Of a DNA stretch of 64,000 bases, positions 1 to 64,000 are shown one piece after another. Below the pieces are notes generated by a model. That model was not told the origin of the DNA. It saw nothing but the letters and a program-made list of their open reading frames with translations, and did not search any database. The stretch lies in contig CALEVN010000026.1 in assembly GCA_937924685.1 (NCBI GenBank), positions 20,058 through 84,057 of the forward strand. The letters are read 5' to 3'. Source of the stretch: an uncultured Candidatus Altimarinota bacterium. Its GTDB lineage: Bacteria > Patescibacteriota > Gracilibacteria > BD1-5 > JAGOOR01. The position numbers were made by a program, and so were the translations under genes. Positions within the stretch are counted from its first letter, which is position 1. Every line of letters begins with the position of its first letter.

Positions 1-760
1 CTATACCATTTTTCATGAGCTCTCCAATAATTCGAGCGAGAGGAATACCAATCTTGTCTGAAAATTCTTTCACAGTAAGAAAATCACCAATCTCGACTTC
101 TTGACCAGATCGATCAACGAGAGTTTGTTTGATATCATCGATGTTTTTCTCTTGTTTTTCTCCGGCAATACCCTTTGAACGACGAAATGTATCGATATCT
201 TCTTTTTCTGTGGAGAGAAAAGTGAGCTTATGTTTCGAACCTTTTTTTGTTGGCTTAAAATTTTTCTTTGGAGCATCAGGCTTACGAAAGTTACCTTTAT
301 TTTGAGCTCCACCAGGTCTCTGAGTATTACCATTTGGACCACCAGGACGACGAGCTCCAAAACTTGGTGAAGATGAAGTGCCCGCATTATTTGCTGGAAA
401 TCGTGGACGATTTGGTCCAGGAAATGAAGGCCGAGATAAGCCGGATGAGCTCTGTGTTGGGGCTGGACGGTTATGAAAGACGACTGCCGGTCGACTCACA
501 AATTTAGCGCCGAGATCCAATTTACCACTTTCAGGAAGCTGTACTTTTCTTGGAGTATACTCAACTGGAGCCTCTTCTTGATGGGGAACCACCTCAGGAG
601 TATCAGGAACAGGAGGGGTAATTTTTTCTGGTACAGGAGCAGGAGATGCGGCTTTCTTGGCTACAATTTTGATTTTCTTTTTTTCGACTCATCCTCCCGA
701 TTGTGTGGTGCTGGGACCAATATTTGCATAGTAATCATCTCCTGATGTTGGTTTGACCAT
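1..760 (-). CDS. infB: translation initiation factor IF-2, N-terminal part (gene continues past the left edge)
   Basis: The reverse frame starts at ATG 758-760 and reads MVKPTSGDDYY. A basic Pro/Gly-rich linker follows, then EVEIGDFLTVKEFSDKIGIPLARIIGELMKNGI. That segment matches the IF-2 region just upstream of the G domain (E. coli [31 protein letters not shown]). There is one in-frame TGA (GG-TGA-V). Confidence 0.7.
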
Positions 761-786
761 AAAAAAGCCCTATAAAATTATAGGGC
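761..786 (-). terminator. stem-loop plus T-run (rho-independent terminator-like) downstream of the 831-1373 gene, abutting the infB ATG
   Basis: The minus strand reads GCCCTATA-ATTT-TATAGGGC followed by TTTTTT. This is an 8-bp stem with a 4-nt loop. Confidence 0.45.
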
Positions 787-830
787 ATAGAGTATAAAAA
801 AAGTGATGGAAGTCAAAGTGTTTTCGGCAA

Positions 831-1373
831 TTAAATCGGCAATTTCATATTTTCATCGCTGGTGTCTCAGAGAATTTTTTTATAACTATCATGATCTTCA
901 TTTTCGATACCCTGGACAAAGACATGTTTGTAGGATTGTTTTTCTTCTGTTTTTCGCACTATGATGCCTCATACGACCAGGAGTAGTCCTCACAAAAGTG
1001 TCAAAACCAAACCAGACATACCAGTCGTCATACGAATATTACTACTTACTGAAATCGTACTAGCCGCCCCCATGAGGCAGATGCTGACGATCATGGTCAT
1101 AAGAATAATAATACTACCGAAACGCACATAGATATATTCAGAACCAAAGTTCATATGCCATGTTTTTTGTATCTTCTGGGTAAAATCGTAGGAAACAAGG
1201 TGAATCAAGAGTATGACGAGTAAAATAGAAACCCACCAACCGATACCACCACATAGGAGAGAAAATGCACCAATACTACTATTTGCATCTATCTCAATCC
1301 AGGGTGAAAAAAGACCGAGAATAACACATAAAATACCAGAAATAACGACTTTTACTCACCAAGAAGACTTCAT
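831..1373 (-). CDS. hypothetical integral membrane protein (180 aa)
   Basis: ATG at 1371-1373, TAA at 831-833, 543 nt in one frame with four in-frame TGAs. It contains track ORF 990..1208. The sequence is hydrophobic, e.g. VISGILCVILGLF, GIGWWVSILLVILLIHL and IIILMTMIVSICLMGAA. Confidence 0.6.
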
Positions 1374-1486
1374 AAAAAATCACCATATATTTTCGATATA
1401 TCGGATAAGAAAAAAGTGGTGTATTCAACGTCGAGAGCGAAATGGTGTATAGGGAGACATATGTGCGACTTTATACTGATAAGGGT

Positions 1487-1735
1487 CTAAGAGTAAAGAA
1501 GAATCCATTGACTACGAAAAAGTTTCAGCGTATACTTAAAACCATGTCAAATCAGCGTCCCAATACCGTCGTCATCATATTCCTGCTTATCATAGGTATC
1601 ATACGTATACTCTGAGAAAGTATTTACAAAGGTCTCTGGGCACTCCTCTTCGGACGCGTCATACCTCTCAAAAATGCTCGCACACTCCGGCTCTGGCACT
1701 GGTGAGTCCTCGATGGACCAAAAAAATTCTGGCAA
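1487..1735 (-). CDS. possible small acidic protein (very uncertain)
   Basis: Track ORF 1547..1735 ends at a TGA and reads on to TAG at 1487-1489. The start is non-ATG (TTG). It is rich in Asp/Glu and has no recognisable motif. Confidence 0.2.
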
Positions 1736-1806
1736 TCACCCAGCGTAACAAAAATCGGGAGAATACTCTCAACTACTATACAGGTCATATTTTATCCAAA
1801 AAAATA

Positions 1807-6518: not shown

Positions 6519-6564
6519 AATAAATAAAAGTTAATAATTGTTCAGATACGCCAGACGTCACGTA

Positions 6565-6786: not shown

Positions 6787-6803
6787 AAATTAAATAATTG
6801 GAA

Positions 6804-7229: not shown

Positions 7230-7241
7230 AATGAAAATCAA

Positions 7242-8003: not shown

Positions 8004-8714
8004 ATGAACAGCCGAAAATCCTCCATTGATGCCCGAAAAATCCAGATTCTCTGACTCATCGTCCGAGAGTATATCAAAAGTGGCGATGCAACGGGCAGCA
8101 AATCTCTCGTCCGAGATGAGGGCATGGAGATATCCCCTGCCACGATTCGTAATGACATGAAACAACTCGAAGAAATGGGTCTCGTTTATCAACCCTACAA
8201 TTCTGCTGGTCGTATGCCGACAACGAGATGAATCAGAATGTACGTAGATTATCTGATAGAAGTAGCTCCTCAGCGTTATCTTGGCACGCCTTTTATTACT
8301 GAAGAAAATGCACTCGAATTTCATGATGATCGCCTCTATGATCTCGTATCAGATCTCGCACAAGCGACTCATGACTTGGCTTTTTGTTCTTCACCTGATG
8401 CTGGTATTTATTGTATAGCTGGGCTCTCATATTTTCTGCGAAAACATAGTGAAACATTGGGAGAGCAAATTTTCTCGATCCTCGATACCGTTGAAAATCG
8501 AACGCTTTTTACTCGTACAATCGCCAATCTCGCACAACCAGGACGCATCACGGTCTGCATAGGAGAAGAAAATATTCTTCCAGAATTGGAGAGCTGTTCT
8601 CTTATGGTCGCGGACATCACACTCGCAGGACATCGTTGTCACCTCGGACTTCTGGGTTCAAAACGAACTGATTATGGTTTTAATCTCAGCGTACTCCGAA
8701 CAATAGGAGTCTAA
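8004..8714 (+). CDS. hrcA: heat-inducible transcriptional repressor HrcA (short form, 236 aa)
   Basis: ATG at 8004. The sequence RKIQIL-G-LIVREYIKSGDATGSKSLVRDEGMEISPATIRNDMKQLEEMGLVYQPYNSAGRMPTTR-G-IRMYVDYL matches the HrcA N-terminal winged helix and the PT..GYR.YVD motif. Two TGAs. It joins to track ORF 8238..8714. Confidence 0.85.
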
Positions 8715-11484: not shown

Positions 11485-12321
11485 ATGAAAAAATTCCTTC
11501 TTTTTTCGACTTTCGCACTTCTTTTTTTAAGTGGATATGTGAGAGGTGAATTTATCGCGCCTCCACTTCCCTCTTCCCCTGTGTATGATGAAGTCATTTT
11601 ATTAAAAGCTGACGAAAAGACATCACTTGAACAACAAATACTCACCCTCGAGTCATCGACTCATCACCAAATAGGTATAGCCATAATAAAAAGTCTTCAA
11701 GGAAGAACGATAGAGGAAGCAGGTATAGCGATAGCTCGTACCTGGTGAATCGGACAAAAAGGCCTCGATAATGGACTTTTAATAGTGATAGCCCCAACGG
11801 AACGAGAAATGCGTATTGAAGTCGGTCGATGACTCGAATGAATCATAACAGATTTGATGTCTCAGAGAGTAATTGATGAAAATTTTAAACCAAATTTTCA
11901 AAATGGAAACTATGCTGCTGGCCTTACAGAAGGAATCGAACGTATATCTCCACTCCTCCGTGGTGAAGTTGTCGATCTTCCTGAACAAGAAAGCGAACAG
12001 CCTCCCTATATTTTTATCATCATAATCGGATTATGGATGTTTGGAAGTGTACTTTCTTCAACAAAATCCTGGTGGCTTGGTGGAGTTTTTGGTGCTATTA
12101 TTTGAGGAATTCTCTGATCCATAAGTGGGGTTTTGGTTGGTGGACTTCTTGGGCTTGGGATAGACTTTCTCTTGTCCACTGTACTGTACAAGAAAATCAG
12201 ATTTGGGTCTTCAGGTGGACGTTTTTGAGGGGGGTGATTCGGCGGAGGAAGTTCCGGGGGCGGTTGGGGTGGTTTTGGAGGTGGCTGATTCTGAGGAGGA
12301 TGAGCAAGTGGCAAATGGTAA
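11485..12321 (+). CDS. TPM-domain (YgcG-like) membrane protein with a Gly-rich tail
   Basis: Joins track ORFs 11485..11748 and 11854..12105 (frame 1), ending at TAA 12319-12321 with ten TGAs. It has a TPM-like core (HQIGIAIIKSL...GLLIVIAPTEREMRIEVGR), a TM helix, and the tail GGRF-G-GG-G-FGGGSSGGGWGGFGGG-G-F-G-GG-G-ASGKW. Confidence 0.8.
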
Positions 12322-22164: not shown

Positions 22165-24783
22165 ATGAATCAAAACTACACCATGGCAGCCCAAGAACGG
22201 CTCTCGGAATCAGTCCAGTTCGCTCAGAGTTCCGGACATACAACGATAGAACCTCTTCACCTGCTTCGAAGCATTTTGCATGCCTCTGAAAGCATCAATC
22301 AATCCCTCTTCGAACGAGCAGGGACAAATATCCAAGTATTGAAAAACGATGTCGACACAACCCTGTCGAAGTTGGCGAAAGTCAGTGGAAATACATGAGA
22401 ACCATGAGCTTCCCAAGAGTTGGCGAAGGTTCTTCAAAGTGCTGAGAAATCCATGAAAACCATGAATGATAGTTACACGACCGAGGAACATCTCATGATA
22501 GGACTTCTCGAATCAGCAAAGTCACTCGAACCACTTTTCAAATCTGCTGGACTTACTCAGAAAAATTACGAAGAGGCCGTAAAAAAACTCCGAAATGGGA
22601 AAAAAGTAACATCCAATACGGCTGAGAATTTGTATGAATCACTGAAAAAATATACTATCGATCTCATTGATCAGGCAAAAAAAGGAAAGATAGATCCTGT
22701 CATCGGGCGTGATGAAGAAATCCGTCGAGCCATTCAAATCCTGGCACGTAGAAGCAAAAATAATCCTGTCCTGATTGGTGATCCTGGCGTTGGTAAGACA
22801 GCGATTGTCGAAGGTATCGCGATAAGAATTATTAGTGGCGAAGTTCCTGATGCACTCTTGTCGAAGAAAATCCTCACACTCGACCTCGGAGCAATGATTG
22901 CCGGAGCGAAATATCGTGGTGAATTCGAAGAACGGCTCAAGTCTGTCATCGACGAAGTCGAAAAATCTGATGGTGAAATCATCCTCTTTATCGACGAAAT
23001 TCATACTATTGTTGGTGCTGGTGCGAGCGAATGATCGACAGATGCTGGCAATCTCCTCAAGCCTGCTCTTGCTCGAGGACGTATCAAAGTCATTGGTGCT
23101 ACGACGATTAACGAATATAGAAAATACATCGAAAAAGATGCAGCACTCGAACGACGATTTCAACCTGTCATGGTCGACGAACCAAATCGTGACGATGCTA
23201 TCACCATCCTCCGAGGCATCAAAGACAAGTACGAAACCTTTCATGCCATAAAGATTACTGACTCAGCGCTCGTCGCCGCAGTAGACATGTCGACACGATA
23301 CTTGCCAGATCGTAAACTCCCCGATAAGGCTATCGACCTCATCGACGAAGCAGCATCAGCGCTCAAGATTGGCTCTACCAGTAAACCAGCCGAGATAGAC
23401 ACAATCGACAAAAAAATTCACTCACTTCAAATCGAGCGTGAGGCTCTTCTCCGTGAGCAAAAAGACAGACCAGAAGATGGAAACAAGACACGCATTGTCG
23501 ACATAGAGAAAGAACTCGCAAACCTCCAAGAAGAGCAAAAAAAACTCCATGCTGCCTACGAAGACGAGAAGAAGATGATGCACGATTTGAAGAAAATCCG
23601 TGAAGACCGTGAGAAACTTATCCTCCAAGCAGAACAACTCGAACGTGACGCGGATTATGCTGCCGTAGCTGAAATACGATACAAGAAACTTCCTTCACTC
23701 GACACAGAACAAAAGAAGCTCGAGGCTATCGCCGAGGCTCGCCGAGCTGATGGCCGAAGCTTCTTCCGAGACACAGTCGACATAGAAGACATAGCAGCAG
23801 TGATTTCTCGCTGGTCAGGTGTCCCAGTCGGCAAACTCATCCAGACAGAAAATGACAAATATATTCACCTCTTCGACCACCTCCAATCATCCGTCAAAGG
23901 ACAAGATCATGCTCTCCGAGCAGTCGCTGAAGCAGTACAACGATCCAAGGCAGGCCTCTCGGATAAAAACCGACCAATTGGAAGTTTCCTCTTCCTCGGA
24001 CCAACGGGTGTTGGTAAAACCGAGACAGCAAAGACTCTTGCCAATTCCCTTTTTGATCACAGTGGAGCATTTATCAGAATCGACATGAGTGAGTATGGTG
24101 AGTCACACTCTGTCGCACGCCTCATCGGCTCTCCTCCAGGGTATATCGGCCATGACGAAGGTGGACAACTCACCGAAGCTGTCCGTCGTAAACCCTTCTC
24201 TGTAATACTCTTTGATGAAATAGAAAAAGCTCATCCCGATGTCTACAATGTCTTTCTTCAAATCCTCGATGATGGACGTCTGACAGACGGCAAAGGTCGA
24301 ACGGTCGACTTCAAAAACACCATTATCATCATGACCAGTAATATCGGTTCTGAGAAGATTATGGATTTCTTTAGTGAGGAGAAAGGTGGACACAATGTCG
24401 ACGATATCCAGATGAAAGCCCTCCAAGATATGATGATAGGACAACTCCGCAATTACCTCCGTCCTGAGCTCATCAATCGTATCGACGACATCATCGTCTA
24501 TCGACCACTTGGTGATGAAGTACTCCGTTCTATCATCGACCTCGAGCTGTCGAAGGTGTCGAACATGCTCGCCGAAAAATCTATCACGGTCACCTGGGAC
24601 AAGTCTGTCTACGAGTATCTCATGAAGCATGGCATTGATCCACAGTTTGGTGCTCGTCCACTCCGTCGTGCTGTCACAAAATATATCATTAATGCTCTCT
24701 CCATGAAACTCCTCGATGGAAGCCTCAAGGAGGGAAGTGCTATCAAAGTGAAATATAGTAAAGACAATATTGAGATAAAATAA
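22165..24783 (+). CDS. clpB: ATP-dependent chaperone ClpB
   Basis: Joins track ORFs 22165..22398, 22420..23034 and 23170..24783 (all frame 1, 873 codons). It has two AAA+ modules ([13 protein letters not shown] and [15 protein letters not shown]) separated by a long coiled-coil middle domain. The TGA at 23032 aligns with the Gly of E. coli GAGKADGAMDAGN. Confidence 0.95.
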
Positions 24784-29897: not shown

Positions 29898-30215
29898 ATG
29901 CACCGAGCTCTCCCTGCCATATCTATAGTGACACTGATTATCCTCTGTCTCTTTGCGATGGTTCTGGGGTGGATAAAGTATTTCGATTATCGACAAAAAG
30001 AAGACAAAATAGCCTCGTTTCCAGAATACTATCGAGGTTTAGCCCGCGGATGTTATGAACGAGAAAGTGTTAATTGTTGTCTCTGATCCGTGTCGAATAT
30101 GCAGTCAGAAAATGCCCTTCTTATAGGGCAAGATGGTTGTCCAGAGTGAACCCGGCAAGAAATGCTTAAATGTCTAGGGAGCTATACTTGGTGTACTACA
30201 AAAAGCAGTAATTAG
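29898..30215 (+). CDS. small membrane-anchored Cys-rich protein (105 aa)
   Basis: Track ORF 29898..30086 reads through two TGAs to TAG 30213-30215. It has one N-terminal TM helix and eight Cys residues, seven of them in the C-terminal part beyond the helix. Confidence 0.45.
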
Positions 30216-32108: not shown

Positions 32109-32193
32109 TGGTGCCCAAGAGAGGACTCGAACCTCCACGCCTTGCGGCGCTACCACCTCAAGGTAGTGCGTCTGCCAATTTCGCCACCTGGGC
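32109..32193 (-). tRNA. tRNA-Leu (anticodon GAG), CCA encoded
   Basis: The minus strand reads GCCCAGG-TG-GCGAAATTGGCAGACGC-A-CTACC-TTGAGGT-GGTAG-CGCCGCAAGGCGT-GGAGG-TTCGAGT-CCTCT-CTTGGGC-A-CCA. It folds with a 7-bp acceptor stem, the long variable arm typical of Leu, a TTCGAGT T-loop and a GAG anticodon. Confidence 0.9.
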
Positions 32194-32971: not shown

Positions 32972-34912
32972 TTACCCTATCTCGAGAATAATATCTCGTA
33001 GTTCAGCTGCTTTTTCAAAGTCGAGGTTCGCAGCTGCTATATCCATTTCCAGCTCCAGACGACGAATATAAGCATCTTTGTCGACTCATTTCGGTATCTT
33101 GTCGATGACTTCTTTTTTACCCTTAAATCAGAGATCTTTGATACTCGAGATAATAGTAGTGGGAGTTATACCGTGTTCCGCATTATACTTCATCTGGATT
33201 TCTCGGCGTTTACGTGTGATTTCCATGGTCTCTGCCATAGATCGAGATATCTGTCATTCGTATGAGTAAAAAATCACATGGCCGTTTGAATTTCGGGCAG
33301 CACGGCCGACAATCTGTATCAATGATTGTGTCGAGCGGAGAAAGCCCTGCTTGTGAGCATCTATAACTCCGATAAAAGAAACTTCTGGGAGATCGAGACC
33401 CTCCCGGAGGAGATTGACGCCCACAATGACATCGACCTTTCCTGTTCTTAAATCTTTCAATATTTTTAACCGTTCGATAGTATCGATCTCCGAATGAAGA
33501 TAGTGTGCTGTCACGCCATGCTCTTTGAGGTATGAGGCGAGGTCTTCGCTCGATTTTTTTGTAACAGTTGTGATGAGAGCACGTTCGCCACGTTCGACAG
33601 CAGTTCTTATGTTGTGGAGGAGGCTTTCGACAAGTTTGTCCATAGGCTCGACTACAATCTCTGGATCGAGAAGACCAGTAGGACGAATGATTTGTTCGAC
33701 AAGTGGGCCACCGCGCTCTATAGGAGAATTTCCAGGAGTAGCAGAGACACAGAGAAATTGTTTGATTTTTGATTCAAATTCATGGAAATAGAGAGGTCGA
33801 TTATCATAAGCGCTTGGCAGACGAAAACCATTTTCCACGAGCATATCTTTTCTTGATTTATCTCCGGCAAACATTCCTTGAACCTGGGAAAGAGTAATAT
33901 GAGATTCATCAACAATAGTGAGAAAATTCTCTGGGAAATAATCAATCAATGTCATCGGCGGATCGCCAGGTTGCCTACCATCCAAGTGTCGAGAGTAATT
34001 CTCGATACCCTTCACGTAACCCACTTCATTCATCATCTCGAGATCATATTCGACACGGGTTTTGATACGCTCGGCGGCAATTATATTGCCAGTTTGTTTG
34101 AAGTATTCGATTCGTTCAGCAAGTTCTGCCTTGATAATAGGGGTAATTGCTTTGACATGTTCGACACTCGTAACCGTATGAGATGCAGGAAAAACCATGA
34201 GATCATGGACACTTTCGACAACATGTCATGATATTGGTTCCACAACACGGATAGCTTCTATCTCTGTCCCGAAAAATTCGATACTATAATAATGTTCTTT
34301 ACTAGCAGGGTATATCTGAAGGGTGTCTCCGAGAACACGAAACATACCTTGCTTAAAATCAAGTGTTGCACGATCAAATTGGAGTCCTACGAGGTGGTTT
34401 ATGAGGTCCTTGATAATATATTTTTCACCTTGTGAGAGACGAAGTATACCTCCTACATATTCCTCTTTATTTCCGATACCATAAATACAGCTCACCGAAG
34501 CCACAATGATGACGTCTTCCCGGGTCAGAAGAGCCTCTGTTGCAGCATGTCGAAGTCTATCTATCTCATCATTAATAGAAGAATCTTTTTCGATATAGGT
34601 ATCTGTTTTTTGTATATAGGCCTCTGGCTGGTAATAGTCATAATAGCTCACGAAATAATGCACTGCATTATTTGGGAAAAATTCTCGGAATTCCTGACAC
34701 AGCTGAGCAGCAAGAGTTTTATTATGAGCAATGATCAGAGTCGGTCTTTGGGTCTTTTGAATAATATTTGCCATAGTGAAGGTCTTCCCTGAGCCTGTCA
34801 CGCCTTGAAGTGTCTGGTATCGATTGCCAGAGTTGAGACTTTTGACCAGTGTTTCTATAGCTTGCGGCTGGTCTCCAGTCGGTTTATAATTACTTTTGAG
34901 ATCAAAGAGCAT
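32972..34912 (-). CDS. uvrB: excinuclease ABC subunit B
   Basis: Joins track ORFs 34226..34912 and 33254..34198 with a C-terminal extension to TAA 32972-32974 (647 codons). Motifs include [32 protein letters not shown], the helicase C region, and a UVR-type C-terminus ([15 protein letters not shown]). Confidence 0.95.
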
Positions 34913-39127: not shown

Positions 39128-41959
39128 ATGTCCAATACTATTGATCTTTTCTGAGTTGCCACGCACAATCTGCGCAATGTAGATATATCTTTTACCAAAA
39201 ATACACTCACTGTCCTCACAGGAGTGAGTTGATCGGGTAAATCCTCTCTAGCCTTCACAACCCTCTGCAACGAAGGGCAGCGACGATATCTCGAATCTCT
39301 CTCCACCTATGCTCGTATGTTTATCGGTGGCATGAGTGAAGAAGCAAAAGTAAAAGAAATCCGTGGTCTCACACCGACTATTAGCATAGAACAAAAAACA
39401 GTCGCCCACAATCCTCGCTCGACGGTGGGCACGATTACGGAAATATATGATTTTTACCGTCTCTTTTTTCTCAGTCTCGGTACACGTATTTGTCCTCATG
39501 ATGCCACACCGATGATGAAAAAGACGCATAAGGATGTGATAGAATACCTTTCAAAGACCAAAAAAGGAGTCCGAGTAGGAATATGTGCTCAGATACGAAA
39601 AACATTTGAAACAGCTCTTGAGCTGCGAGATTTTGTTGGTCAAAAGTGATTTGTTCGATATTTGTCGAACAACCATGTCTATAACCTCTCCGATGCTCTC
39701 CCAGAAAAGATAACTGACCCATGGATTATTGTCGATCGTGTCGAAATTGATAGCGAAGATCCGACCCAAAATGATCGACTTTCACAGTCGATATCAACTG
39801 CTTTTGAGCACGGTGAAGAAGTTGTTGGTATTTATAATTTTGAACGAGAAACAATGGAAGTGTTTTCTCGAGCTTTTCGCTGCCCCCTCTGTGGTTATGT
39901 ACCAGAAGAATTGACCCTTTCTCATTTTTCTTTCAATTCACCGACAGGTGCCTGTCCAGATTGTCATGGTCTTGGCTCCCTTCTGAACTTCACAGAAGAG
40001 TCCACTATTGATCCAAATAAGACATTGGATGAAGGGTGTGTCATGCCATGGACACCTGATTCGTATTACTATTTTGTCCTTCAGGGCGCATGCAAACATT
40101 ATAAAATCCCAACAAAAATTCCCTATAAGGATTTGACCGATAAACACAAAAAAATTATTCTTCACGGTTCAGAAGAGAGGTTGTCACTTTCGACACCTCA
40201 GATGAATAAGCCGTGGAATGCAAAATACCCAGGTATTATACCCTACCTCAATCGTGTCTACCATGATCCAGATACAACAGAGGCGCTCCATGAAAAGATA
40301 GATCCATTTGTCGTATCTTCGACATGTTCGACATGTCATGGCTATAGAGTAGGCGAAGCTGCAAGAAGTGTCGTCATAGACGGCAAACACATAGGTCATA
40401 TCGCCGAGATGTCTGTGGAGAAAACTATTGATTTTTTTGAACACCTGAAGCTTTCGGGAGAGGATTCAAAGATTGCGGGCAATGTCCTCAAAAATATTCG
40501 TGACCGTCTCAAATTCTTAAAATGAGTCTGACTTGGCTATATGACACTTGCTCGTCGATCAAATACTTTGTCTGGCTGAGAATCCCAGCGTATTCGTCTC
40601 GCGACACAAGTAGGCACGAGACTCGAATGAATCACCTACGTCCTCGACGAACCATCTATCGGTCTCCATCCTCGAGACAGTCGACTCTTGATAGACAATC
40701 TCCGAGAGCTCGTCAATCTGGGTAATACGGTGATTGTTGTCGAACATGACGAAGATATCATGCGAACGGCTGATGAAATAGTCGATATCTGACCTGGCGC
40801 AGGTGTCCATGGTGGAAATATTGTCTTCCAAGGTACCTACGAAAAGCTCCTCAAGTCTAGCACAGAAACTGCCAAGTTTTTACGAGGAGAAAATACTATA
40901 CAGATACCAGCACTCAGCAAAAAACCAACCAAGTATATAAAATTAAAGGGTGCGACAGAAAATAATCTCCAGAATGTCAGTGTCGACATCCCACTCGAGG
41001 CACTGACAGTTGTCACGGGTGTGAGCGGTTCAGGAAAATCTTCACTCATTAATAGGACATTTTCTCCTGTCATGCGAAATCTCCTCCATGGTACGAGAGA
41101 TACACATGGTGCGCTCAAGGGTATCGAGGGGTATGAAGACCTCGACAAGGTCGTCATCATCGATCAGATGCCCATAGGGAAGACGCCACGATCAAATCCG
41201 GCGACATATACAGGTGTCTTTACCGATATACGAGAAGTATTCGCACAGACGCTCGAAGCTCGAGCTCGGGGATATGGGCCAGGGCACTTCAGTTTCAATA
41301 CAAAACAGGGACGTTGTGATGCTTGTGAGGGGGATGGAGTTCGCCGAATACAGATGCATTTTCTTCCAGATGTCCATGTCACCTGTGAATCATGTCAGGG
41401 TACTCGCTACAACCATCTCGTTCGGGAGGTACACTTCCATGACAAGTCTATATCGGATATCCTCGCCATGACTGTCGAAGATGCTGTGATTTTCTTTGAT
41501 AAATTCCCAAAAATTAAACATAAACTTCAGACAATTCTCGAAGTAGGTCTCGGATATATAACGCTTGGTCAATCAGCCCTGACATTGTCTGGAGGTGAAT
41601 CCCAGCGTGTAAAATTGGCGACAGAACTTGCTCGAAAATCAACAGGGAAGACCCTCTACATCATGGATGAACCTACCACCGGTCTCCACTTTTCTGACAT
41701 ACAGAAACTTATGTCTATCGTGTCTACTTTGGTCGAAAAAAAGAATACGGTCGTCATCATAGAACATCATCTCGATGTCATCGCCAATGCTCACTATATT
41801 ATCGACATGGGGCCAGAAGGTGGCGAACGAGGAGGACGACTCCTCTATCAGGGGCCTCGTGACGGCGTCCTCACTGCAGAGGAATCATTTACGGGTCAAT
41901 GTCTCCAGGAATACCTCGATCATAAAAAGAAACAAATACCGTCTAAAAAGAAAAAATAA
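39128..41959 (+). CDS. uvrA: excinuclease ABC subunit A
   Basis: Frame 2 joins track ORFs 39317..39649, 39662..40525 and 41021..41959 (944 codons). Motifs include [12 protein letters not shown], the Zn modules, [12 protein letters not shown], the second Walker [11 protein letters not shown] and [12 protein letters not shown]. Confidence 0.95.
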
Positions 41960-41963: not shown

Positions 41964-42824
41964 ATGGAACAGCATGTCGACATATCTCATCTCTCCGGCT
42001 ACCATACTGCAGCGACAGCGAGATATTTTGTCGAGTTTCATGGCGACAATGTCGAAGATATAAGAGCAGCAGCCAAGTTTGCCCAACAAATGAAGCTTCC
42101 GATACTGACTATCGCTGGTGGTAAAAACAGCCTTCTCGCTTTTGATGAATATCCAGGTCTTGTCATCTATAACTCGTCTGAGGGCTATGATCTCCAAAAT
42201 AAACACTTAAAAGCCCTCTCTGGTCAACCTATCTGGGAATTAGCCGAAGCTCTGGAGACAGAGCATGGCATAGATTTCTGGCATCGATTTCAGTGACTTC
42301 CGTGATCTGTCTGAGGTGCTGTATTTGGAAATGCTGGATGTTTTGGTCTAGAAATAGGGCCCTATGTCACATCGGTCGAGGTTCTCGATATGCAGACAGG
42401 AGAAATTCTTATAAAAAACCCAGAAGAATTGGTATTTGATTATCGATGGTCAGAGTGCAAGAATCATCCAGAATGGTTTATTATTTCGGCTGATTTTGAT
42501 CTGTCAGAGCTTCGTGAAAAGTATCATTCGGACGAAGAGCCTCTTCTCTGGCGAGAAAGAGTCCAGCCTGTCGGTCTCTCTTGTGGCTCATTTTTCAAAA
42601 ATCCAAGTCGTGAACAATCCGCCTGATTCTTGATTGAACAGGTTGGTCTCAAATGACATCGCCATAATGGTGCATATTTTTCTGACAAACATGCGAATTT
42701 CCTTATGTCTGACGGCACGGCGAAGTGGACAGACCTTGTCGAACTTGTCGAACTTGCACAGAAAAAAGTGATGGACAAATTTCAGATATCACTTATCCCC
42801 GAGGTCAGAATTATAAAAAATTAA
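41964..42824 (+). CDS. murB: UDP-N-acetylenolpyruvoylglucosamine reductase
   Basis: ATG at 41964. Frame 0 joins track ORFs 41775..42296 (its 3' part) and 42390..42626. Motifs are G-LP-G-SV-G-GAVFGNAGCFG, GSFFKNP, FLIEQVGLK-G-HRHNGAYFSDKHANF. It ends at TAA 42822-42824. Confidence 0.85.
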
Positions 42825-45237: not shown

Positions 45238-46209
45238 ATGAATATTTCAGACTTTTGACATGAGCTCACACATCAACTCAAGTCACTGCGACACATTTCT
45301 CTCATAGCCCATAAAAATCCAGATGGTGATGCTATGGGTGCGCTTGAGGGTATGCGTTGTTTGCTCTCGGATAATTTTCCTCATCTGGTAGTGGATGTTG
45401 TTATGCCGCAAGAAGATTTCGATGCCCATGTTTTCTGGGTTATGGGAAAGACGGAAGAAAATTTCTCAGACACTACTGATTGTATCATACTCCTCGATGC
45501 CCCACGGCTTACGAGAACTGCTCTGCCTCTTGAGGTATTTGCTGATAAAAAAGTACTCTGCATAGACCACCATGAATCGTTCGAAGATAGTATTCCTGGT
45601 TATGTCGATTCTCATGCGAGTGCGACATGTCTCATTTTGACGGAGATGGCACTCACTCTTGGCTGGAAAATCTCAGTGCAGGCTGCCACAGCTCTCCTCA
45701 TGGGTATTTATACAGATACAGGGGGCTTTATTCACAGAAGTACAGACACTCGGTCTTTTGTTGCAGCAGCTGAGCTCATGCGGTTAGGTGCTGATCAAGT
45801 ACGTATAAGTACGGAGGTCTTTGGTAACTACACTCTCCCATATTTGCATGATCTTGGTCGATGACTCTTGTCGATCGTTATTGTCGATGGTATAGCATGT
45901 CTCTTTCTCTGAGCCAATACCAATGCAGCCCTCAAAAACCACATTATAGGGTTCTTAAGTGGCCTCGCAGGTGTCGACATAGCCTGTGTCATGGTCGACA
46001 TAGAATGAGTCATCAAGTGCTCTTTTCGCACAAGAAAAGACACGATTGATGTCAATGAACTAGCAAAAAAACTCTGAGGCGGTGGCCACAAAAAAGCCTC
46101 TGGCTGTATCCTAGATGGACGTCTCCATGAGGGCATATTTCACTGGCAGTGACAGGAATATTCACCAACTACCTTTGCACAATTTATAAAAACTCTATGA
46201 CCACTCTAA
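45238..46209 (+). CDS. nrnA: DHH/DHHA1 phosphoesterase (NrnA-like oligoribonuclease/pAp phosphatase)
   Basis: ATG at 45238. Frame 1 joins to track ORF 45334..45864 and ends at TAA 46207-46209. Motifs are IAHKNPDGDAMGA, CIDHH, GIYTDTGGF and the DHHA1 motif G-GGGHKKASG. Confidence 0.7.
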
Positions 46210-47878: not shown

Positions 47879-47893
47879 GACAGAAACTGTATC

Positions 47894-49518: not shown

Positions 49519-52500
49519 ATGCGTCAGATCCTTCGACAAATCGTCGCAGTTCTCGCGTTTGCTGGAATTACTATGAGCATCGCTCCTAGTACTTTCGCTG
49601 CAACATACAATGACTTGTCTGCTGCAAACAAACTCGCTACTGCAGGAATCGTAGTTGATCATTCAGCAGCTCCTGCTGAATATCGACTCGCTGATAATGT
49701 TCTCCGTCAGGAGGCTATCGGTGTTGCTGGTAAAGTGTCAGGTGTTATACCAAACACTCCAGTATCTTCATACTCTTGTATGAACAAGTTTAGTGATATT
49801 TCAGAAGCTTGGGTTTGCCGAGCTGCTGAACTCGGAGTTCAGGCTGGTTTTGTTAATGGTAACAACGCTAAGTTCCGACCTCGAGACAACGTATCACGAT
49901 ACGAGTCTCTCCTCTGGGCTATCAAATCTAACGGCATCTCTATCTCTGATACTTCTGTATCAGGTGTAGTAGCTCGTGCTGTAGAAGTTGGTATCATCGC
50001 TAACGCATCTTCATTCAACGCTACTACTTCTGCTACTCGTGGCGAAGTGTTCCGTTACAATGCTTACGCAATGGACTACAAAGCTGCTAACTCAAATGGA
50101 AATGGTAACAATGATATTCTCTGTCTTCTCGATCCTTCATTCTGTGGTAACAATGGAGGTCAAGTAGTTAACGGAAACGTCACTGTTGGTACTTCTGCTG
50201 CAAATCCTGGCGTTATGACTATCGCTACTGGTACAGCTCACAACACTGTCTTGGCATTCAACGTGTCAAACGGTTCTTCTGTTGCTGCTAACGTAACTGG
50301 TCTTCGCTTGACTAAAACTGGTTTCTTCGCTACTACAAATGTCTCAGGCATTGAAGTATTCGACGCTAACGGTGTTCGTCATGGAAATGTCGTTACTACT
50401 CTCGGTTCAAATGGTGTCGCTATGATGACATTCCCTACTGAACCTATTATGGTAGCTGCAGGTCAGACTGTTACTATCTTCGTCAAGGCTAACCTCTCTG
50501 GTACATCTTCTGGTACTATTGGCTTCAACGTCAATTCTGCTTCTGATGTTACTATCTCAGGTGGTACTGTCGGTGGTACATTCCCAATCGTCGGTAACCT
50601 CCACAACATCGTAAACGGTGCTGGTACTATCGGTACTGTCACTCTCGATGAAATGGCTGTTAACGCTTCTGGTGCTACATACAACGCAGATCCAGCGGCT
50701 TCTCAGGAAATCGCTAAATTCCAAGTTCGTGAGACATCAAGCAATGAAGACATCGTCCTCACTGGTCTCAAGCTCTGGAATAATGGTAATGCTTCTGCTA
50801 CTGACTACAAGGATGTTCAACTCGTTGATCAGACTGGTGCAGTCGTTGCTACAGCTCAACCTATGGGTCAAGTTGTTAGTTTTGTTCTTTCTACTCCTTA
50901 CTCAATCACTAAGGGTCAGACTAAGAACTTCACTGTTCGTGCTACTATCGTCAATGGTGCTTCTCGTACTATCCAGTTCACAGTCTACAACGACTACGAC
51001 CTCTACGTAAGAGGTGTGAGCACAGGAGCTACTCTCCTCGCTACTGCTGGTACTACTGACACATCATTCCCAATCGGTGACACTACTTCTACTTACAACA
51101 AAGTAACTATTGGTTCTGGTTCACTCATCTTCAATCGTGCTGTTGATTCATCTTCTACAGCTGTTACTCCTGGTGCTACAGATGTAGTTCTCGCGAAATA
51201 CACTGCTAAACCAGTTGGTGAAGATATGGAACTCCGAACAGTTAACTTCGGTATTGACCAAGATACAGGTGCTGTTGCTCTTACAGGTACAGTATTTGTT
51301 AAGGTTAATGGTGCTGTTGTTTACTCTGCTGCTGCAAATACTACTAACTTCCCAGTTGCTGGTACTGCTTCATCTCGTACACTCTCATCTTACCCTATCC
51401 TCACTGCAGGTGTAGAAAACACTATTGAAGTAATTGCTTCAATCAGCTCTTCTGCTACTGCTGCTGATGCATACCAGGTGAAGGCATTTGACATCACATC
51501 TACAAAACGACTCATCTCAAATGATATCGTTGACCCAACTGTTTCTACACAAGACGGTTTCAACCGAACTGTTAAGGCAGCTGCTGTCACAGTTACGACT
51601 CTCGCAACTCCTGTTGCTGGTTCTATCGTTCCTGGTACAAATGGTGTTAAACTCGCAAGCTTTGAATTCAATGCTAGCGCTTCTGGTGAAGATGTTCGTG
51701 TCACAGCTGTTACTGTTACTGATACGAAAGGAGGCTCTGCTGTCTATGCAGACATCTCTAACCTCGTAATGAAGGATGCATCTGGTGCTCAACTCACTAC
51801 TTCTTCTTCTACAGCGACAAATGCTAACACTGTTACATTTACATTCACAAATCCTATCATCGTAGGTCGTTCTGCTACTACTGTTATTAACCTCTTTGGT
51901 GATGTCAGAAGTAGTGCGACTGCTGGTGGCACTTCTGCATATGCTCATACATATAACATTAATGCTTCTGGTGATGTAACTGCTACTGGTAAAGACACTG
52001 GTAACACTATCGCGACTCCTACTGTTTCTGGTTCAGGCCAGGCTCAGAGAATCGTCTCTGGTGGTAACCTCAATGTCGCCACTGATTCAGGTGCTGGAAA
52101 AACTCCTTCACTTGCTCAAATCGTTCCAATTAACTCTGTAGACGGAGTCTATCTCGCTGCTCGCTTCTCATCTCAATTTGAAGCTCAGAAAGTTACATCT
52201 CTTACTCTCAAAGCTACTGGTACAGCACTCGTTCAGAACAACCTCAAGAACATCCGTCTCTACGCACAATCTGGTACTGGTCCACTCCTTGGATCTACTG
52301 CTGCATTTGCTACGACAAATCAGTTCTCTAGCTGTTCTTCAAACGTATGTTCTTACACATGGACTGCTACAGACAACCTCCTCCCTGCCGTTATTGATCC
52401 TTCTTCTCCTATGACTATCTTCGTCAAGGCTGATATCCAAGGTGAAAATACAGCTAAGCTCGGAAATGACTTCTACTTCTCTATCACAAATGATGGTACA

Positions 52501-53103
52501 GATGTAGTTGCTAAGGGTGCTGTTTCTTCTACTGCTCCTACATACGACTCAAACACTGCTGCTAACTCTACTGCTAAGTCTTATATCAACCCATTCAATG
52601 TCGTAGCGACAGGCGAATCACCAACAAATGGTTCAAATGTTCTCTCGTCTGTGGGTTCTGGTACTCAGCTTGCTCGATTCAAGGTTACAAATAATGGTTC
52701 TGCTCAAATTACTTTGACAGATGCTACATTTACTAACTCTGGCTCTCATACTGGTACTGATGAAAGATATACTGTCTATGCATCAAGTGAAAACTCAAAT
52801 GACTACACTGCTAATACGCTCGAAGCGTCTTCAACAGATACTGTAGCATTTGGTAGTCTTACAACTCCTGTAACAATCAATGGTGGATCTTACCGATACA
52901 TCACGGTTGCTATTACAACAGTTGGATCGACTGCTTCAGGTGATACATATTCACTTTCTATCGCTAGTCTTGGTGATCTCAAGTACTCTGTTACTGAATC
53001 AGCTCTCGGCTACGATGCTAACCAGGATAATGATCAGGGCGATACTGTCACTTCACTCCGTGTTGATGGTAAACCAGCTCTCGGAACTATCCAGAAGCAA
53101 TAA
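49519..53103 (+). CDS. S-layer-like protein: signal peptide, SLH-like module, ~1000-aa beta-rich Thr/Ser/Ala/Gly/Val/Asn region
   Basis: Uninterrupted 1194-aa ORF with no TGA. The signal peptide is MRQILRQIVAVLAFAGITMSIAPSTFA. The SLH-like motif is FSDISEAWVCRAAELGVQAGFVNGNNAKFRPRDNVSRYESLLWAI. Codon choice is strongly T-ending (GGT, GCT, ACT, TCT, GTT), and Cys residues are few and confined to the N-terminal part and one cluster near residue 960. Confidence 0.75.
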   Translation: MRQILRQIVAVLAFAGITMSIAPSTFAATYNDLSAANKLATAGIVVDHSAAPAEYRLADNVLRQEAIGVAGKVSGVIPNTPVSSYSCMNKFSDISEAWVCRAAELGVQAGFVNGNNAKFRPRDNVSRYESLLWAIKSNGISISDTSVSGVVARAVEVGIIANASSFNATTSATRGEVFRYNAYAMDYKAANSNGNGNNDILCLLDPSFCGNNGGQVVNGNVTVGTSAANPGVMTIATGTAHNTVLAFNVSNGSSVAANVTGLRLTKTGFFATTNVSGIEVFDANGVRHGNVVTTLGSNGVAMMTFPTEPIMVAAGQTVTIFVKANLSGTSSGTIGFNVNSASDVTISGGTVGGTFPIVGNLHNIVNGAGTIGTVTLDEMAVNASGATYNADPAASQEIAKFQVRETSSNEDIVLTGLKLWNNGNASATDYKDVQLVDQTGAVVATAQPMGQVVSFVLSTPYSITKGQTKNFTVRATIVNGASRTIQFTVYNDYDLYVRGVSTGATLLATAGTTDTSFPIGDTTSTYNKVTIGSGSLIFNRAVDSSSTAVTPGATDVVLAKYTAKPVGEDMELRTVNFGIDQDTGAVALTGTVFVKVNGAVVYSAAANTTNFPVAGTASSRTLSSYPILTAGVENTIEVIASISSSATAADAYQVKAFDITSTKRLISNDIVDPTVSTQDGFNRTVKAAAVTVTTLATPVAGSIVPGTNGVKLASFEFNASASGEDVRVTAVTVTDTKGGSAVYADISNLVMKDASGAQLTTSSSTATNANTVTFTFTNPIIVGRSATTVINLFGDVRSSATAGGTSAYAHTYNINASGDVTATGKDTGNTIATPTVSGSGQAQRIVSGGNLNVATDSGAGKTPSLAQIVPINSVDGVYLAARFSSQFEAQKVTSLTLKATGTALVQNNLKNIRLYAQSGTGPLLGSTAAFATTNQFSSCSSNVCSYTWTATDNLLPAVIDPSSPMTIFVKADIQGENTAKLGNDFYFSITNDGTDVVAKGAVSSTAPTYDSNTAANSTAKSYINPFNVVATGESPTNGSNVLSSVGSGTQLARFKVTNNGSAQITLTDATFTNSGSHTGTDERYTVYASSENSNDYTANTLEASSTDTVAFGSLTTPVTINGGSYRYITVAITTVGSTASGDTYSLSIASLGDLKYSVTESALGYDANQDNDQGDTVTSLRVDGKPALGTIQKQ

Positions 53104-61100: not shown

Positions 61101-61367
61101 GACGTTCTTTTCTATCTTTTTGACGACGAGATCTTCGACACTTTCTGGACTTGCTCCCGGAAGAGCGACATTGATGGATATGATCCCGAGATCAACCTCA
61201 GGCGTACTCTCGAGAGGGAGTGATTTGAGTGCTATGATACCGGCTATGATAAATACGATAATGAAGAGCAGTATGACTCTGAATTTATCAGTAAAAAAAG
61301 TGAACCAGGATTTCTCAAGTTCTGGATCGTAGACGAGTTTTGAGATGTATTTATTGTCAGAGGACAT
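58179..61367 (-). CDS. RND-family efflux transporter permease (AcrB-like, 1062 aa)
   Basis: Joins track ORFs 60879..61367, 60405..60800, 58806..60191 and 58179..58655 (all one frame, 1063 codons). It shows the typical RND N-terminus, two large extracytoplasmic domains and 12 TM segments (e.g. LSLVLSLGLLVDDAILIV). Confidence 0.9.
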
Positions 61368-61376
61368 AGTGAAATT

Positions 61377-63254
61377 TTAGAGAGACTTTTCTTCTTCTGG
61401 TACGATTTTTGGTTTTGTCTGAGTGGGGATTTTTATTGTTTCCTGTATTTCAGAAGGTTCCTCAGATGCTTCGTTTGCTTCTTTGACATAGTCGCCATCT
61501 TCGACATTGAGTGTTCCGAGAGTGACGATTATTTCACCCAGCTTGAGTCCATCGACGATGGTGACACTGGTCTCATTTGTGGCGCCTATTTTGACCTCAC
61601 GCTCATGGACGATACCAGCGTGTGGATTATTCTCATCCGGGGTCAAAACATAGACCGCATAGGTCTCTTGTCCGAGGTTTTTGAGTGCTGAAAATGGTAC
61701 GACGATATCTTTTTTTACTTCTTTTTGTGTTTTTGTGTCATTCTTTGTCACGATGACATCGACGATATCGCCGAGCGCTATATCTGGATGGACTTTTGGA
61801 AGAGTAATCTCAGCTTTGTAGAGGTGGCTGACAGGGTCTGGTCCTGCTGAGAGGCTCTTGAGTTTACCGGTGATGGTTTGTCCATGAATAATGAGTGGTA
61901 TATCTTGAGTCACGTGGAGATATTTTTGTTGTTCAGCCGTCATCTCAGTTTTGACTATCAGACTCGAAGTATCTCCGAGCGTAAAGAGTGACATGCCAGG
62001 CGTTACGAGTGATCACATCTCTGTATTTTTGGCGATGATAACACCAGAAAAAGGTGCTACGACCGAGAGACGTGCGATATTTCCCTCTGCGTTGTCGTAT
62101 TTTATGTTTGCTGAAGCGAGAGACTGATCTATCTGTAGGAGGCTAATATCACGAGTTTTGACAGCAGTATCATAGGCTTTTTTTGCGAGATCGAGAGTAG
62201 ACTTGGCATTGCTTTCTGTAGTAGCGGCAGCTTGTTCTTTTGCACTTCGTTCCTTTTCATACGTTGCGAGGAATGACTGCGCTGTATTTACAAAAGTGAC
62301 GAGCCCAGTAGAGATACTGTTATACTGTGTCTGGTATCCTGAGACGAGAGTTTTCTGTGCCGCCAGAGTGGTAGGAGTAAAGCTCGAAGCATCAGTCTGG
62401 CTATTATTGAGGACTACCTGCACATCACTTAAAACCTTTGCTGCGAGTGTATAGACTCTTTGTAATTCTGTCACACGATCGACAAGAGGAAGCTTTGTAT
62501 CAGGTTTCCAGTTCCGGTATTCGAGGAGACTCGAAATAGAGTTGACTGCATCATTTTTTTTCTGGGGATCTGTCACAGAGAGCAGGTATTCGTAGTTATC
62601 ATTGATTCATTTTTTTGCATCAGTCACGCCGATGATGGTATCTCCAGTGTCGAGAACATTAGCGAGGAATGATTGAAAAATTTGTAGCTGATTTGAGTAG
62701 CTCGTTTCATATCCCTGAAGTGTTTTTTCTTGCGATGTGATGTAGTTATCGAGATCGAGTTTTGCTTTTGAGATGGTTGTGCTATCTTTGGCAGGGGTAA
62801 GCACAGCGGCATCGTAATCCTTTTTTGCTTTTTCATAGGCGATGCGTGTACTCTCGACTGATTGATCGAGAGAGGCTATACTATTTTCTTGAGAGAGTTG
62901 AGCCGTCTTCACGCCAATCGATGCCTCCCGAACACCATTATTCGCTGTACCATACGTGTCCTGTATTCGAGCAATAGTTTCTCCCGCAAGCACCGAATCA
63001 CCACTATTCACGGAAATCATACCCATAAATCCTGTGGTTTGTGTGCTGAGAGAGACTTCTTTTTGTGCGGCTACTTTTCCTGTGATATGAATTTGTTCGG
63101 AGAAAAGACTCTCACCAACGACAGTTGTTTCGACGATTTTTCCCTCTTTTTCAGGAGTGGTAATGGGGTCGACCTTTGCGCTGGAGCTCATCATATTTTT
63201 TATGACGAGAAGGATGAAGACGAGAAATGCGGTAATGATGAGTTTCTTTTTCAT
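61377..63254 (-). CDS. efflux transporter periplasmic adaptor (MFP/HlyD-like) with an unusually long coiled-coil (625 aa)
   Basis: Joins track ORFs 62607..63254, 62013..62576 and 61377..61994 (one frame, two TGAs). It has an N-terminal TM helix, a lipoyl-like segment (GFMGMISVNSGDSVLAGETIARI and later PFSGVIIAKN), a long helical middle region and a beta-barrel C-terminus. Confidence 0.8.
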
Positions 63255-63258
63255 AGGA

Positions 63259-63729
63259 TTATTTTAAAGCATTGATATGTATATCTCGAATCATCTGAAG
63301 CGATGATGTGACACTTTCGAGAGGGATTTCGCTGATTTTTTTAGAAAATTCTGGTATATGTTTTCGCATCATAGCTTCTATTTCATCGTGTTTTTTTTGT
63401 CCTATTTTTGTGAGTGTGATCTGTTTTTTTCTTCGATCAGAGGGGTCTTCTCTGCGGGAGACATATCCTGATTCTATCATACGATCGATGACACCAGAGA
63501 GATTCCCCTTTGTCGTATGATGATCACACCAGAGGTCTGTCATGGTGTCGACTGTGCCACCCTTGGCTATGAGTTGTTTGATGATGCCAAATTGTATCAT
63601 GGTGATATCACTTTTGGCGAAGAAAACTTTCTCTACAAAGAGATGAACAGCATGGCTTGCCTCCATCAGAGATTTAAAAAAATCCATGACCTGATTTTCT
63701 GTTGGAGATGATTTTTTTGCAAAAAACAT
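63259..63729 (-). CDS. MarR-family transcriptional regulator
   Basis: Uninterrupted 156-aa ORF. FGIIKQLIAKGG...LSGVIDRMIESGYVSRREDPSDRRKKQITLTKIGQ matches the MarR winged-helix pattern (DxR wing). It is the first gene of the efflux operon. Confidence 0.85.
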   Translation of the reverse strand: MFFAKKSSPTENQVMDFFKSLMEASHAVHLFVEKVFFAKSDITMIQFGIIKQLIAKGGTVDTMTDLWCDHHTTKGNLSGVIDRMIESGYVSRREDPSDRRKKQITLTKIGQKKHDEIEAMMRKHIPEFSKKISEIPLESVTSSLQMIRDIHINALK

Positions 63730-63808
63730 ATTGGTTTAGTAGTGAATAGTTTACACATAAAACAATATTTGCAATATAAAAAGGAAAGAAATTACCCCAC
63801 TTTATACA

Positions 63809-64000
63809 TTATCTTGCCATTCTCTCTACCTTGTCGAGCATGTTCTGACATTCTTCGGGAGTTTTTTTTCTCATGCGTCCGAAGTTTGTATAGTTTTTGA
63901 GTTTTATACCACACCATCCGAGTACACCGAACTGGAGTATCATGCGGAGAGGATTTCCGATAAACCAATAGAGAAAAGCAAACGCATCACAGGTACAGAA
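63809..64000 (-). CDS. 3' end of a membrane-protein gene (continues past the right edge)
   Basis: The minus frame from the window edge reads FCTCDAFAFLYWFIGNPLRMILQFGVLGWCGIKLKNYTNFGRMRKKTPEECQNMLDKVERMAR and ends at TAA 63809-63811. Confidence 0.4.
   Translation of the reverse strand, partial: FCTCDAFAFLYWFIGNPLRMILQFGVLGWCGIKLKNYTNFGRMRKKTPEECQNMLDKVERMAR

What the first reader, a model, noticed from the sequence alone, without database searches (positions are those of the whole stretch)
1..64000. TGA is a sense codon for glycine throughout (genetic code 25); the standard-code ORF track is systematically fragmented
Every long conserved gene is cut in the supplied track exactly at TGA, and those TGAs fall on invariant Gly positions:
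- UvrA Walker A, GVS-TGA-SGKSS (39230-39232).
- UvrA ABC signature, LSG-TGA-ESQR (40577-40579).
- RadA, VLGG-TGA-LVRGSLTLLSGEPGIGKS (31316-31318, minus strand).
- MurB, TGA-LP-TGA-SV-TGA-GAVFGNAG (42294, 42303, 42312).
- ClpB, GAGASE-TGA-STDAGN (23032-23034).
- HrcA, PTTR-TGA-IRMYVD.
- The DHHA1 GGGH motif of the NrnA-like protein.
- Five TGAs inside the poly-Gly tail of the TPM protein (12226-12303).

All merged frames terminate at TAA or TAG. NCBI translation table 25 is defined for SR1/Absconditabacteria and Gracilibacteria, which places the source organism in or near those CPR lineages. The practical consequence is large: about 40 of the roughly 50 genes here are mis-split or missed under code 11.
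Basis: partly seen in the sequence, partly recalled or inferred. Interest (0 to 1): 0.7.

Follow-up and report, generated by a model that had tools for sequence, protein, structure and literature searches.

The report
UGA read as glycine (code 25)
This 64-kb stretch comes from a small uncultured Gracilibacteria-type bacterium that reads the stop codon TGA as glycine, a genetic code already known for this group, so genes must be called with table 25 but the biology is not new.

Summary

- **ORF statistics.** With TGA as stop the window breaks into 112 short ORFs (mean 172 aa). With TGA as sense it gives 52 ORFs (mean 396 aa) covering 96%.
- **Alignments.** In UvrA, 7 of 8 TGAs sit on columns that are 95-100% Gly in 41 standard-code orthologs. 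Across 17 recoded UvrAs (the window plus 16 relatives), 187 of 189 TGAs in well-conserved columns are Gly.
- **Codon comparison.** Against four close relatives, window TGA pairs with TGA 50 times, GGN 72 times and TGG once. Window TGG never pairs with TGA (0 of 119). This rules out code 4.
- **Lineage.** The nearest genomes are MAGs labelled Candidatus Gracilibacteria, Peribacteria or Patescibacteria. All of them also carry in-frame TGAs.
- **Usage.** TGA makes up about 11% of Gly codons and occurs in 37 of about 48 genes.
- **Not tested.** tRNA-Gly(UCA) and loss of RF2 could not be checked, because neither lies in the window or in the fetched loci.

The phenomenon is established (NCBI table 25, validated by proteomics in BD1-5), so novelty is low. 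It matters mainly for annotation.

One side observation: a strongly codon-biased S-layer-like gene avoids TGA completely.

The parts
1..64000 (.). Whole window: coding sequence that is open only if TGA is a sense codon. There are 158 in-frame TGAs in 37 of about 48 genes, and all genes end in TAA or TAG.
39128..41959 (+). uvrA, 943 aa, with 8 in-frame TGAs at 39152, 39230, 39647, 40523, 40529, 40577, 40628 and 40790
   Evidence: 2r6f, E = 1.8e-269; 7 of 8 on columns 95-100% Gly in 41 standard-code UvrA
41964..42776 (+). murB with 5 in-frame TGAs at 42294, 42303, 42312, 42624 and 42654. All align to Gly in PDB MurB structures.
30212..31540 (-). radA with 4 in-frame TGAs at 31316, 30800, 30767 and 30674. 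Three align to Gly and one to Gln in S. pneumoniae RadA.
22165..24783 (+). clpB with 3 in-frame TGAs at 22396, 22405 and 23032. The TGA at 23032 lies on the conserved Gly of GAGxxxGxxDAGN.
32972..34912 (-). uvrB with 4 in-frame TGAs. One aligns to Gly; the other three lie in variable segments.
8004..8714 (+). hrcA. The TGA at 8229 aligns to the Gly of PTxxG in 1stz. The TGA at 8052 lies at a variable position.
45238..46209 (+). nrnA-like DHH/DHHA1 gene with 7 TGAs. The TGA at 46075 is the first Gly of the GGGGH motif. The TGA at 46198 overlaps the ATG of the next gene (ATGA) and is followed by two codons and TAA.
11485..12321 (+). TPM-domain gene with 10 TGAs. Five lie in the C-terminal Gly-rich tail, at 12226, 12235, 12286, 12292 and 12301.
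49519..53103 (+). S-layer-like gene, 1194 aa, with 0 TGA among 109 Gly codons and strong codon bias. It shows that TGA is a non-preferred Gly codon.
32109..32193 (-). tRNA-Leu(GAG), the only tRNA in the window. No tRNA with anticodon UCA is present.

Best explanation
The window is a piece of the chromosome of an uncultured Gracilibacteria-type bacterium (CPR/Patescibacteria; its nearest relative has a chromosome of about 1.05 Mb) that uses genetic code 25.

**Shown here.**
- TGA is an ordinary, moderately rare glycine codon, about 11% of Gly codons.
- Genes end only in TAA or TAG.
- TGA sits on conserved Gly positions.
- TGA swaps freely with GGN, and not with TGG, between close relatives.
- TGA is avoided in strongly codon-biased genes.

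**Inferred from what is published for this group, not shown here.**
- UGA is decoded by a dedicated tRNA-Gly with anticodon UCA.
- Release factor 2 (prfB) has been lost, so RF1 terminates at UAA and UAG.
For: - **ORF statistics:**. In-frame stop counts.
- **UvrA column composition:**. Pooled over 17 recoded UvrAs (the window plus 16 relatives), 187 of 189 TGAs in columns at least 90% conserved are Gly.
- **PDB alignments:**
- **Codon-level orthology with L001-L004:** TGA pairs with TGA 50 times, GGN 72 times, TGG once; TGG pairs with TGA 0 of 119 times.
- **Relatives:** labelled Gracilibacteria, Peribacteria or Patescibacteria, with 6-50 in-frame TGAs in uvrA.
- **Literature:**
  - UGA = Gly was validated by proteomics in BD1-5 (PMC4032931).
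  - prfB is absent and prfA present in BD1-5 genomes (PMC6851277).
  - tRNA-Gly(UCA) is expected in reassigned genomes, while non-reassigned genomes have RF2 instead (PMC8629427).
  - Table 25 is assigned to GTDB class JAEDAM01, that is Absconditabacterales plus BD1-5 (preprint 10.64898/2026.05.24.727570).
Against: - No tRNA(UCA) was found in the window or in 19 related loci. This is expected for a single-copy gene in a genome of about 1 Mb, but the decoding tRNA remains unobserved.
- prfB status is unknown.
- About one TGA in six aligns to a non-Gly codon in close relatives (24 of 147). That matches the rate for GGN codons (168 of 1140), so it reflects ordinary divergence.
- Several TGAs lie in variable segments and carry no information on their own (UvrB, the ClpB N-domain).
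Confidence: 0.96

Rival explanations
1. Code 4: TGA is read as tryptophan, as in Mycoplasmatales and several insect endosymbionts.
For: Code 4 would lengthen the ORFs just as much. One window TGA pairs with TGG in L001.
Against: - No TGA aligns to Trp in any PDB homolog.
- 187 of 189 TGAs in conserved UvrA columns are Gly, and the conserved Trp column uses TGG.
- Window TGG never pairs with TGA in relatives (0 of 119), although that is a single transition.
Confidence: 0.01
2. Standard code, with the TGAs being real stops: pseudogenes, sequencing errors or a degraded genome.
For: None beyond the fragmented code-11 ORF list.
Against: - TAA and TAG never occur in-frame over 19,447 codons, while TGA occurs 158 times.
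- TGAs are conserved or replaced by GGN in four related genomes.
- Sequence on both sides of each TGA aligns in frame to full-length homologs.
Confidence: 0.005
3. Dual meaning: TGA is mostly Gly but still terminates some genes or is read ambiguously (Gly, Trp or stop) depending on context.
For: - Low-level alternative readings of UGA were seen by proteomics in BD1-5 (PMC4032931).
- In the nrnA-like gene, a TGA lies exactly where L001 has TAG, three codons before TAA.
Against: - All conserved proteins reach the C-terminus of their homologs and then meet TAA or TAG.
- No gene needs TGA as its stop.
- The nrnA case is equally well read as a 3-codon extension.
Confidence: 0.03
4. Selenocysteine or programmed read-through at individual TGAs.
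For: None.
Against: - There are 158 sites spread over 37 genes, on Gly rather than Cys or Sec positions.
- Rfam found no SECIS or other recoding element.
Confidence: 0.001

Closest known systems
NCBI translation table 25 (Candidate Division SR1 and Gracilibacteria code; UGA = Gly)
   Same: - In-frame TGA lies on conserved Gly positions.
- Genes end only in TAA or TAG.
- The genome is small and CPR-type, and the relatives are labelled Gracilibacteria.
- G+C is 41%, inside the published 21-53% range (PMC8629427).
   Different: Nothing in kind. The decoding tRNA and the loss of RF2 were not observed here because the window does not contain those loci.
Absconditabacteria (SR1) extended code, with CGA/CGG predicted to be Trp in addition to UGA = Gly (Shulgina and Eddy 2021, PMC8629427)
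   Same: UGA = Gly.
   Different: In this window and its close relatives, CGA and CGG align with Arg or Lys in conserved UvrA columns, just as CGT does. The additional reassignment is therefore not seen.
Translation table 4 (Mycoplasmatales, Hodgkinia, Zinderia and others; UGA = Trp)
   Same: UGA is a sense codon, and the same ORF-lengthening signature appears.
   Different: The amino acid is Gly, not Trp.

Membership tests
Genetic code 25 organism (UGA = Gly) | Many in-frame TGAs in otherwise intact conserved genes, with no in-frame TAA or TAG | tested here: met
   There are 158 TGAs and no internal TAA or TAG in 19,447 codons. The ORF-length ratio is 2.31, against about 1.0 in most standard-code controls.
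Genetic code 25 organism (UGA = Gly) | TGA columns are dominated by glycine in alignments with standard-code homologs | tested here: met
   UvrA has 7 of 8 TGAs on such columns. Pooled, 187 of 189 are Gly. MurB is 5/5 and RadA 3/4, and the NrnA, HrcA and ClpB motif sites are Gly.
Genetic code 25 organism (UGA = Gly) | TGA behaves as a synonym of GGN between close relatives | tested here: met
   Window TGA pairs with TGA 50 times, GGN 72 times, TGG once and other codons 24 times. GGN pairs with GGN or TGA in 967 of 1140 cases.
Genetic code 25 organism (UGA = Gly) | tRNA with anticodon UCA carrying Gly identity elements (G1:C72, C2:G71, G3:C70, U73) | not testable with these tools
   The only tRNA in the window is tRNA-Leu(GAG). 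None with UCA occurs in 19 related loci.
Genetic code 25 organism (UGA = Gly) | No release factor 2 (prfB); RF1 present | not testable with these tools
   No release-factor gene lies in the window; the only GGQ-motif hits are incidental. Absence of prfB is reported for BD1-5 genomes (PMC6851277).
Genetic code 25 organism (UGA = Gly) | Affiliation with the Absconditabacterales / BD1-5 lineages (GTDB class JAEDAM01) | tested here: inconclusive
   The nearest uvrA loci are MAGs labelled Candidatus Gracilibacteria, Candidatus Peribacteria or Patescibacteria group, and they are recoded. In a UvrA NJ tree the window plus L001-L004 form their own clade, sister to the other recoded MAGs. Order-level placement was not determined.
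Genetic code 4 organism (UGA = Trp) | TGA columns dominated by Trp, and TGA interchanging with TGG | tested here: not met
   No PDB homolog has Trp at a TGA site. TGG pairs with TGA 0 of 119 times.

The most novel reading that the evidence does not exclude
The window and its four nearest relatives (three labelled Candidatus Peribacteria at NCBI) form a separate branch, sister to the other recoded MAGs in a UvrA tree. If whole-genome placement put this clade outside GTDB class JAEDAM01 (Absconditabacterales plus BD1-5), it would widen the known range of the UGA = Gly code or point to a second origin. The gTranslate preprint flags a few comparable Patescibacteria orders. In addition, the complete avoidance of TGA in the strongly codon-biased S-layer-like gene across three genomes would be direct evidence that the reassigned codon still carries a translational cost.
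Probability: 0.08. Interest if true: 0.45.

Novelty: already known. Interest (0 to 1): 0.2.

Why it matters
The value is practical.
- Under code 11, about three quarters of the genes in this window are split or lost. UvrA breaks into at least five pieces.
- Annotation, completeness estimates and homology searches on this contig are therefore wrong unless table 25 is used.
- Table 4 would insert Trp at 158 Gly positions.

Biologically this is one more instance of a reassignment that is already established and has been validated by proteomics in this group.

Tried and rejected
- **Length-based ORF picking.** With TGA as sense, a purely length-based greedy choice picked wrong-strand ORFs over clpB, murB and others, because off-frame ORFs also open up. 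I replaced it with a codon-usage score plus homology.
- **Extending the window.** Looking up the TGA-free MarR protein (look-up of encoding contigs) returned only contigs of about 1 kb.
- **tRNA and RNA scans.** tRNA scans of 19 related loci and an Rfam scan of the window gave no tRNA(UCA).
- **Hairpin repeat as a genome probe.** The repeat around the GIY-YIG gene is not dispersed: 2 copies in the window and 1 in L001.
- **Literature.** Campbell et al. 2013 (PMC3619370) is not held.
- **Metagenome scan not run.** I considered scanning for a tRNA-Gly(UCA) pattern but did not, because hits could not be linked to this organism.
- **SR1-type CGA/CGG to Trp.** Tested and rejected.
Full report
**Observation**

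The window is 41% G+C. I took stop-to-stop ORFs of at least 60 aa and chose a greedy non-overlapping set.

| Reading of stop codons | ORFs | Mean length | Coverage |
|---|---|---|---|
| Code 11 (TGA = stop) | 112 | 172 aa | – |
| TGA as sense | 52 | 396 aa | 96% |
| TAG as sense (control) | 105 | 186 aa | – |
| TAA as sense (control) | 104 | 192 aa | – |

In the same test most standard-code loci fetched later give a mean-length ratio of about 1.0 (range 0.8-1.4), whereas the window gives 2.31.

Over a curated set of 45 genes (19,447 codons) there are 158 in-frame TGAs and no internal TAA or TAG. In the two off-frames all three triplets are common. Under code 11 the tool's own ORF list cuts uvrA at 39647, 40523 and 40790, and cuts murB at 42294 and 42624.

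**Which amino acid**

*UvrA.* UvrA (39128-41959) matches Geobacillus UvrA (2r6f) at E = 1.8e-269. I aligned it with the UvrA ORFs of 79 loci from one scan of GTDB species representatives.
- Seven of its eight TGAs fall on columns that are Gly in 39-41 of 41 standard-code sequences.
- The eighth is N/D in those sequences but G or TGA in the recoded relatives.
- Pooled over 17 recoded UvrAs (the window plus 16 relatives), 187 of 189 TGAs in columns at least 90% conserved are Gly. The one well-conserved Trp column is encoded by TGG.

*PDB homologs.*

| Protein | TGAs aligned to Gly |
|---|---|
| MurB | 5 of 5 |
| RadA | 3 of 4 |
| ClpB | the conserved GAGxxxG site |
| UvrB | 1 of 4 (the rest in variable segments) |
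| NrnA-like | first Gly of GGGGH, plus one more |
| HrcA | the PTxxG site |

None of these TGAs aligns to Trp.

*Paralogy inside the window.* The N-terminal ABC half of UvrA reads GVSxSGKSS, LSGxESQR and DIxPGAG. The C-terminal half reads [17 protein letters not shown] and DMGPEGG.

**Codon-level comparison with relatives**

The closest loci are:
- L001 (OZ246415.1, a 1.05-Mb MAG chromosome labelled uncultured Candidatus Peribacteria, 93% identical in UvrA);
- L002;
- L003 (Candidatus Gracilibacteria DAH.8);
- L004.

I threaded codons through blastp alignments of up to 15 syntenic orthologs.

| Window codon | Paired codon in relatives |
|---|---|
| TGA (147) | TGA 50, GGN 72, TGG 1, other 24 |
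| GGN (1140) | GGN 877, TGA 90, other 168, gap 5 |
| TGG (119) | TGA 0 |

So TGA behaves as a fifth synonymous Gly codon and not as a Trp codon. This excludes code 4 and excludes the idea that these are real stops or errors.

CGA and CGG align with Arg or Lys in conserved UvrA columns, as CGT does. The extra CGA/CGG to Trp change predicted for Absconditabacteria (PMC8629427) is therefore not present.

**Extent**

- TGA makes up 158 of 1,459 Gly codons (10.8%).
- After adding three genes I had first missed, 37 of about 48 genes carry at least one TGA. The three are nusB (5754-6218, minus strand), a comF-like gene (38527-39069) and a GIY-YIG gene (47533-47796, minus strand).
- TGA-bearing genes run from the first gene (infB fragment, 2-769) to 61377-63263, so the whole window is recoded, not just part of it.

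**Source organism**

- All the nearest uvrA loci are MAGs labelled Candidatus Gracilibacteria, Candidatus Peribacteria or Patescibacteria group. They carry 6-50 in-frame TGAs in uvrA, whereas Bacteroidota and other standard-code hits carry none.
- In a UvrA neighbour-joining tree the window and L001-L004 form a clade sister to the other recoded MAGs.
- NCBI places Candidatus Peribacteria in Peregrinibacteriota.
- The gTranslate preprint explains that NCBI and GTDB labels around 'Gracilibacteria' are inconsistent, and that table 25 belongs to GTDB class JAEDAM01 (Absconditabacterales plus BD1-5).
- I could not determine the order-level placement.

**Mechanism**

*Shown here.* TGA is translated, and its meaning is Gly.

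*Inferred from the literature, not shown here.*
- Decoding is by tRNA-Gly(UCA), and RF2 has been lost.
- Reassigned genomes of this group carry that tRNA, while non-reassigned ones carry RF2 instead (PMC8629427).
- prfB is absent and prfA present in BD1-5 genomes (PMC6851277).
- Peptides confirm Gly at UGA in a BD1-5 enrichment: 97 peptides unique to the Gly translation, 3 to Trp and 0 to stop (PMC4032931).

*Status in this window.* The only tRNA is tRNA-Leu(GAG). No release-factor gene is present. Nineteen related loci hold no tRNA(UCA). These two defining features therefore remain untested.

**Side observations**

- The 1194-aa S-layer-like gene (49519-53103) has 0 TGA in 109 Gly codons (binomial P = 4e-6). 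Its orthologs in L001 (0 of 46) and L003 (0 of 78) are also TGA-free.
- That gene's codon usage is strongly biased (GGT 74%, GCT 74%, ACT 63%, CTC 75%). The bias runs in the same direction as in the S6, S18, SSB and L32-like genes, which also lack TGA.
- TGA thus looks like a non-preferred Gly codon avoided in highly expressed genes.
- Conversely, an orphan ORF (21110-22096) uses TGA for 12 of 26 Gly codons and has atypical AT-rich codon usage. It is the only open frame in that stretch.

**Verdict**

The phenomenon is the established code 25 in its known lineage, and close relatives are already in public databases. Its importance is for annotation. Interest is low for a specialist.

Noticed in passing
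window 49519-53103 (+); L001 21252-22796; L003 12532-15678: The S-layer-like gene (no Pfam hit, SLH-like N-terminus) has 0 TGA among 109 Gly codons (P = 4e-6). Its codon bias is very strong (GGT 74%, GCT 74%, ACT 63%, CTC 75%) and runs in the same direction as in the ribosomal-protein and SSB genes at 6303-7592, which also lack TGA. Orthologs in two relatives are TGA-free too. TGA looks like a non-optimal Gly codon avoided in highly expressed genes.
   Followed up: partly
window 21110-22096 (+): An orphan ORF with no Pfam hit uses TGA for 12 of its 26 Gly codons (P = 6e-6). Its codon usage is atypical and AT-rich (AGA, TTA, GTA). It is the only open frame in that stretch. It may be weakly expressed or recently acquired.
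   Followed up: partly
window 47420-47957: A GIY-YIG nuclease gene (47533-47796, minus strand) is bracketed by 64-nt direct repeats at 47420-47483 and 47894-47957. Each repeat carries the hairpin TCCCGAC-GAAA-GTCGGGA. The syntenic site in L001 has a single copy (19421-19438). It looks like a small mobile insertion.
   Followed up: partly
window 46197-47384 (+): One ORF joins S4 and PseudoU_synth_2 domains (RluB-like) to a C-terminal riboflavin kinase domain. ORFs of the same size with the same C-terminus are present at the syntenic site in L001, L003 and L004.
   Followed up: no
window 46195-46209; L001 18073-18085: The nrnA-like gene reads CTA TGA CCA CTC TAA, with the ATG of the next gene overlapping the TGA (ATGA). 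L001 has TAG at the position of that TGA. Under code 25 the window protein is simply three residues longer.
   Followed up: yes
L005 (JAQTLR010000004.1) and L007 (MNYO01000091.1): Two Gracilibacteria-labelled MAGs that group with recoded relatives in the UvrA tree have 0-1 TGA in uvrA. Their ORF-length ratio is only 1.3-1.5. They either use TGA very sparingly or use the standard code.
   Followed up: no
window 42947-45160 (+): A Ser/Thr-rich surface protein with Bact_surface_Ig-like domains has 0 TGA in 82 Gly codons (P = 8e-5). Its counterparts in L001 and L002 have 5 and 12 TGAs and are much more divergent than the neighbouring genes.
   Followed up: partly
window 5754-6218 (-), 38527-39069 (+): A nusB-like gene and a comF-like phosphoribosyltransferase gene overlap the ends of longer stop-to-stop ORFs. 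They are easily missed when TGA is simply opened. Gene calling under code 25 needs start-site care because off-frame ORFs also lengthen.
   Followed up: partly
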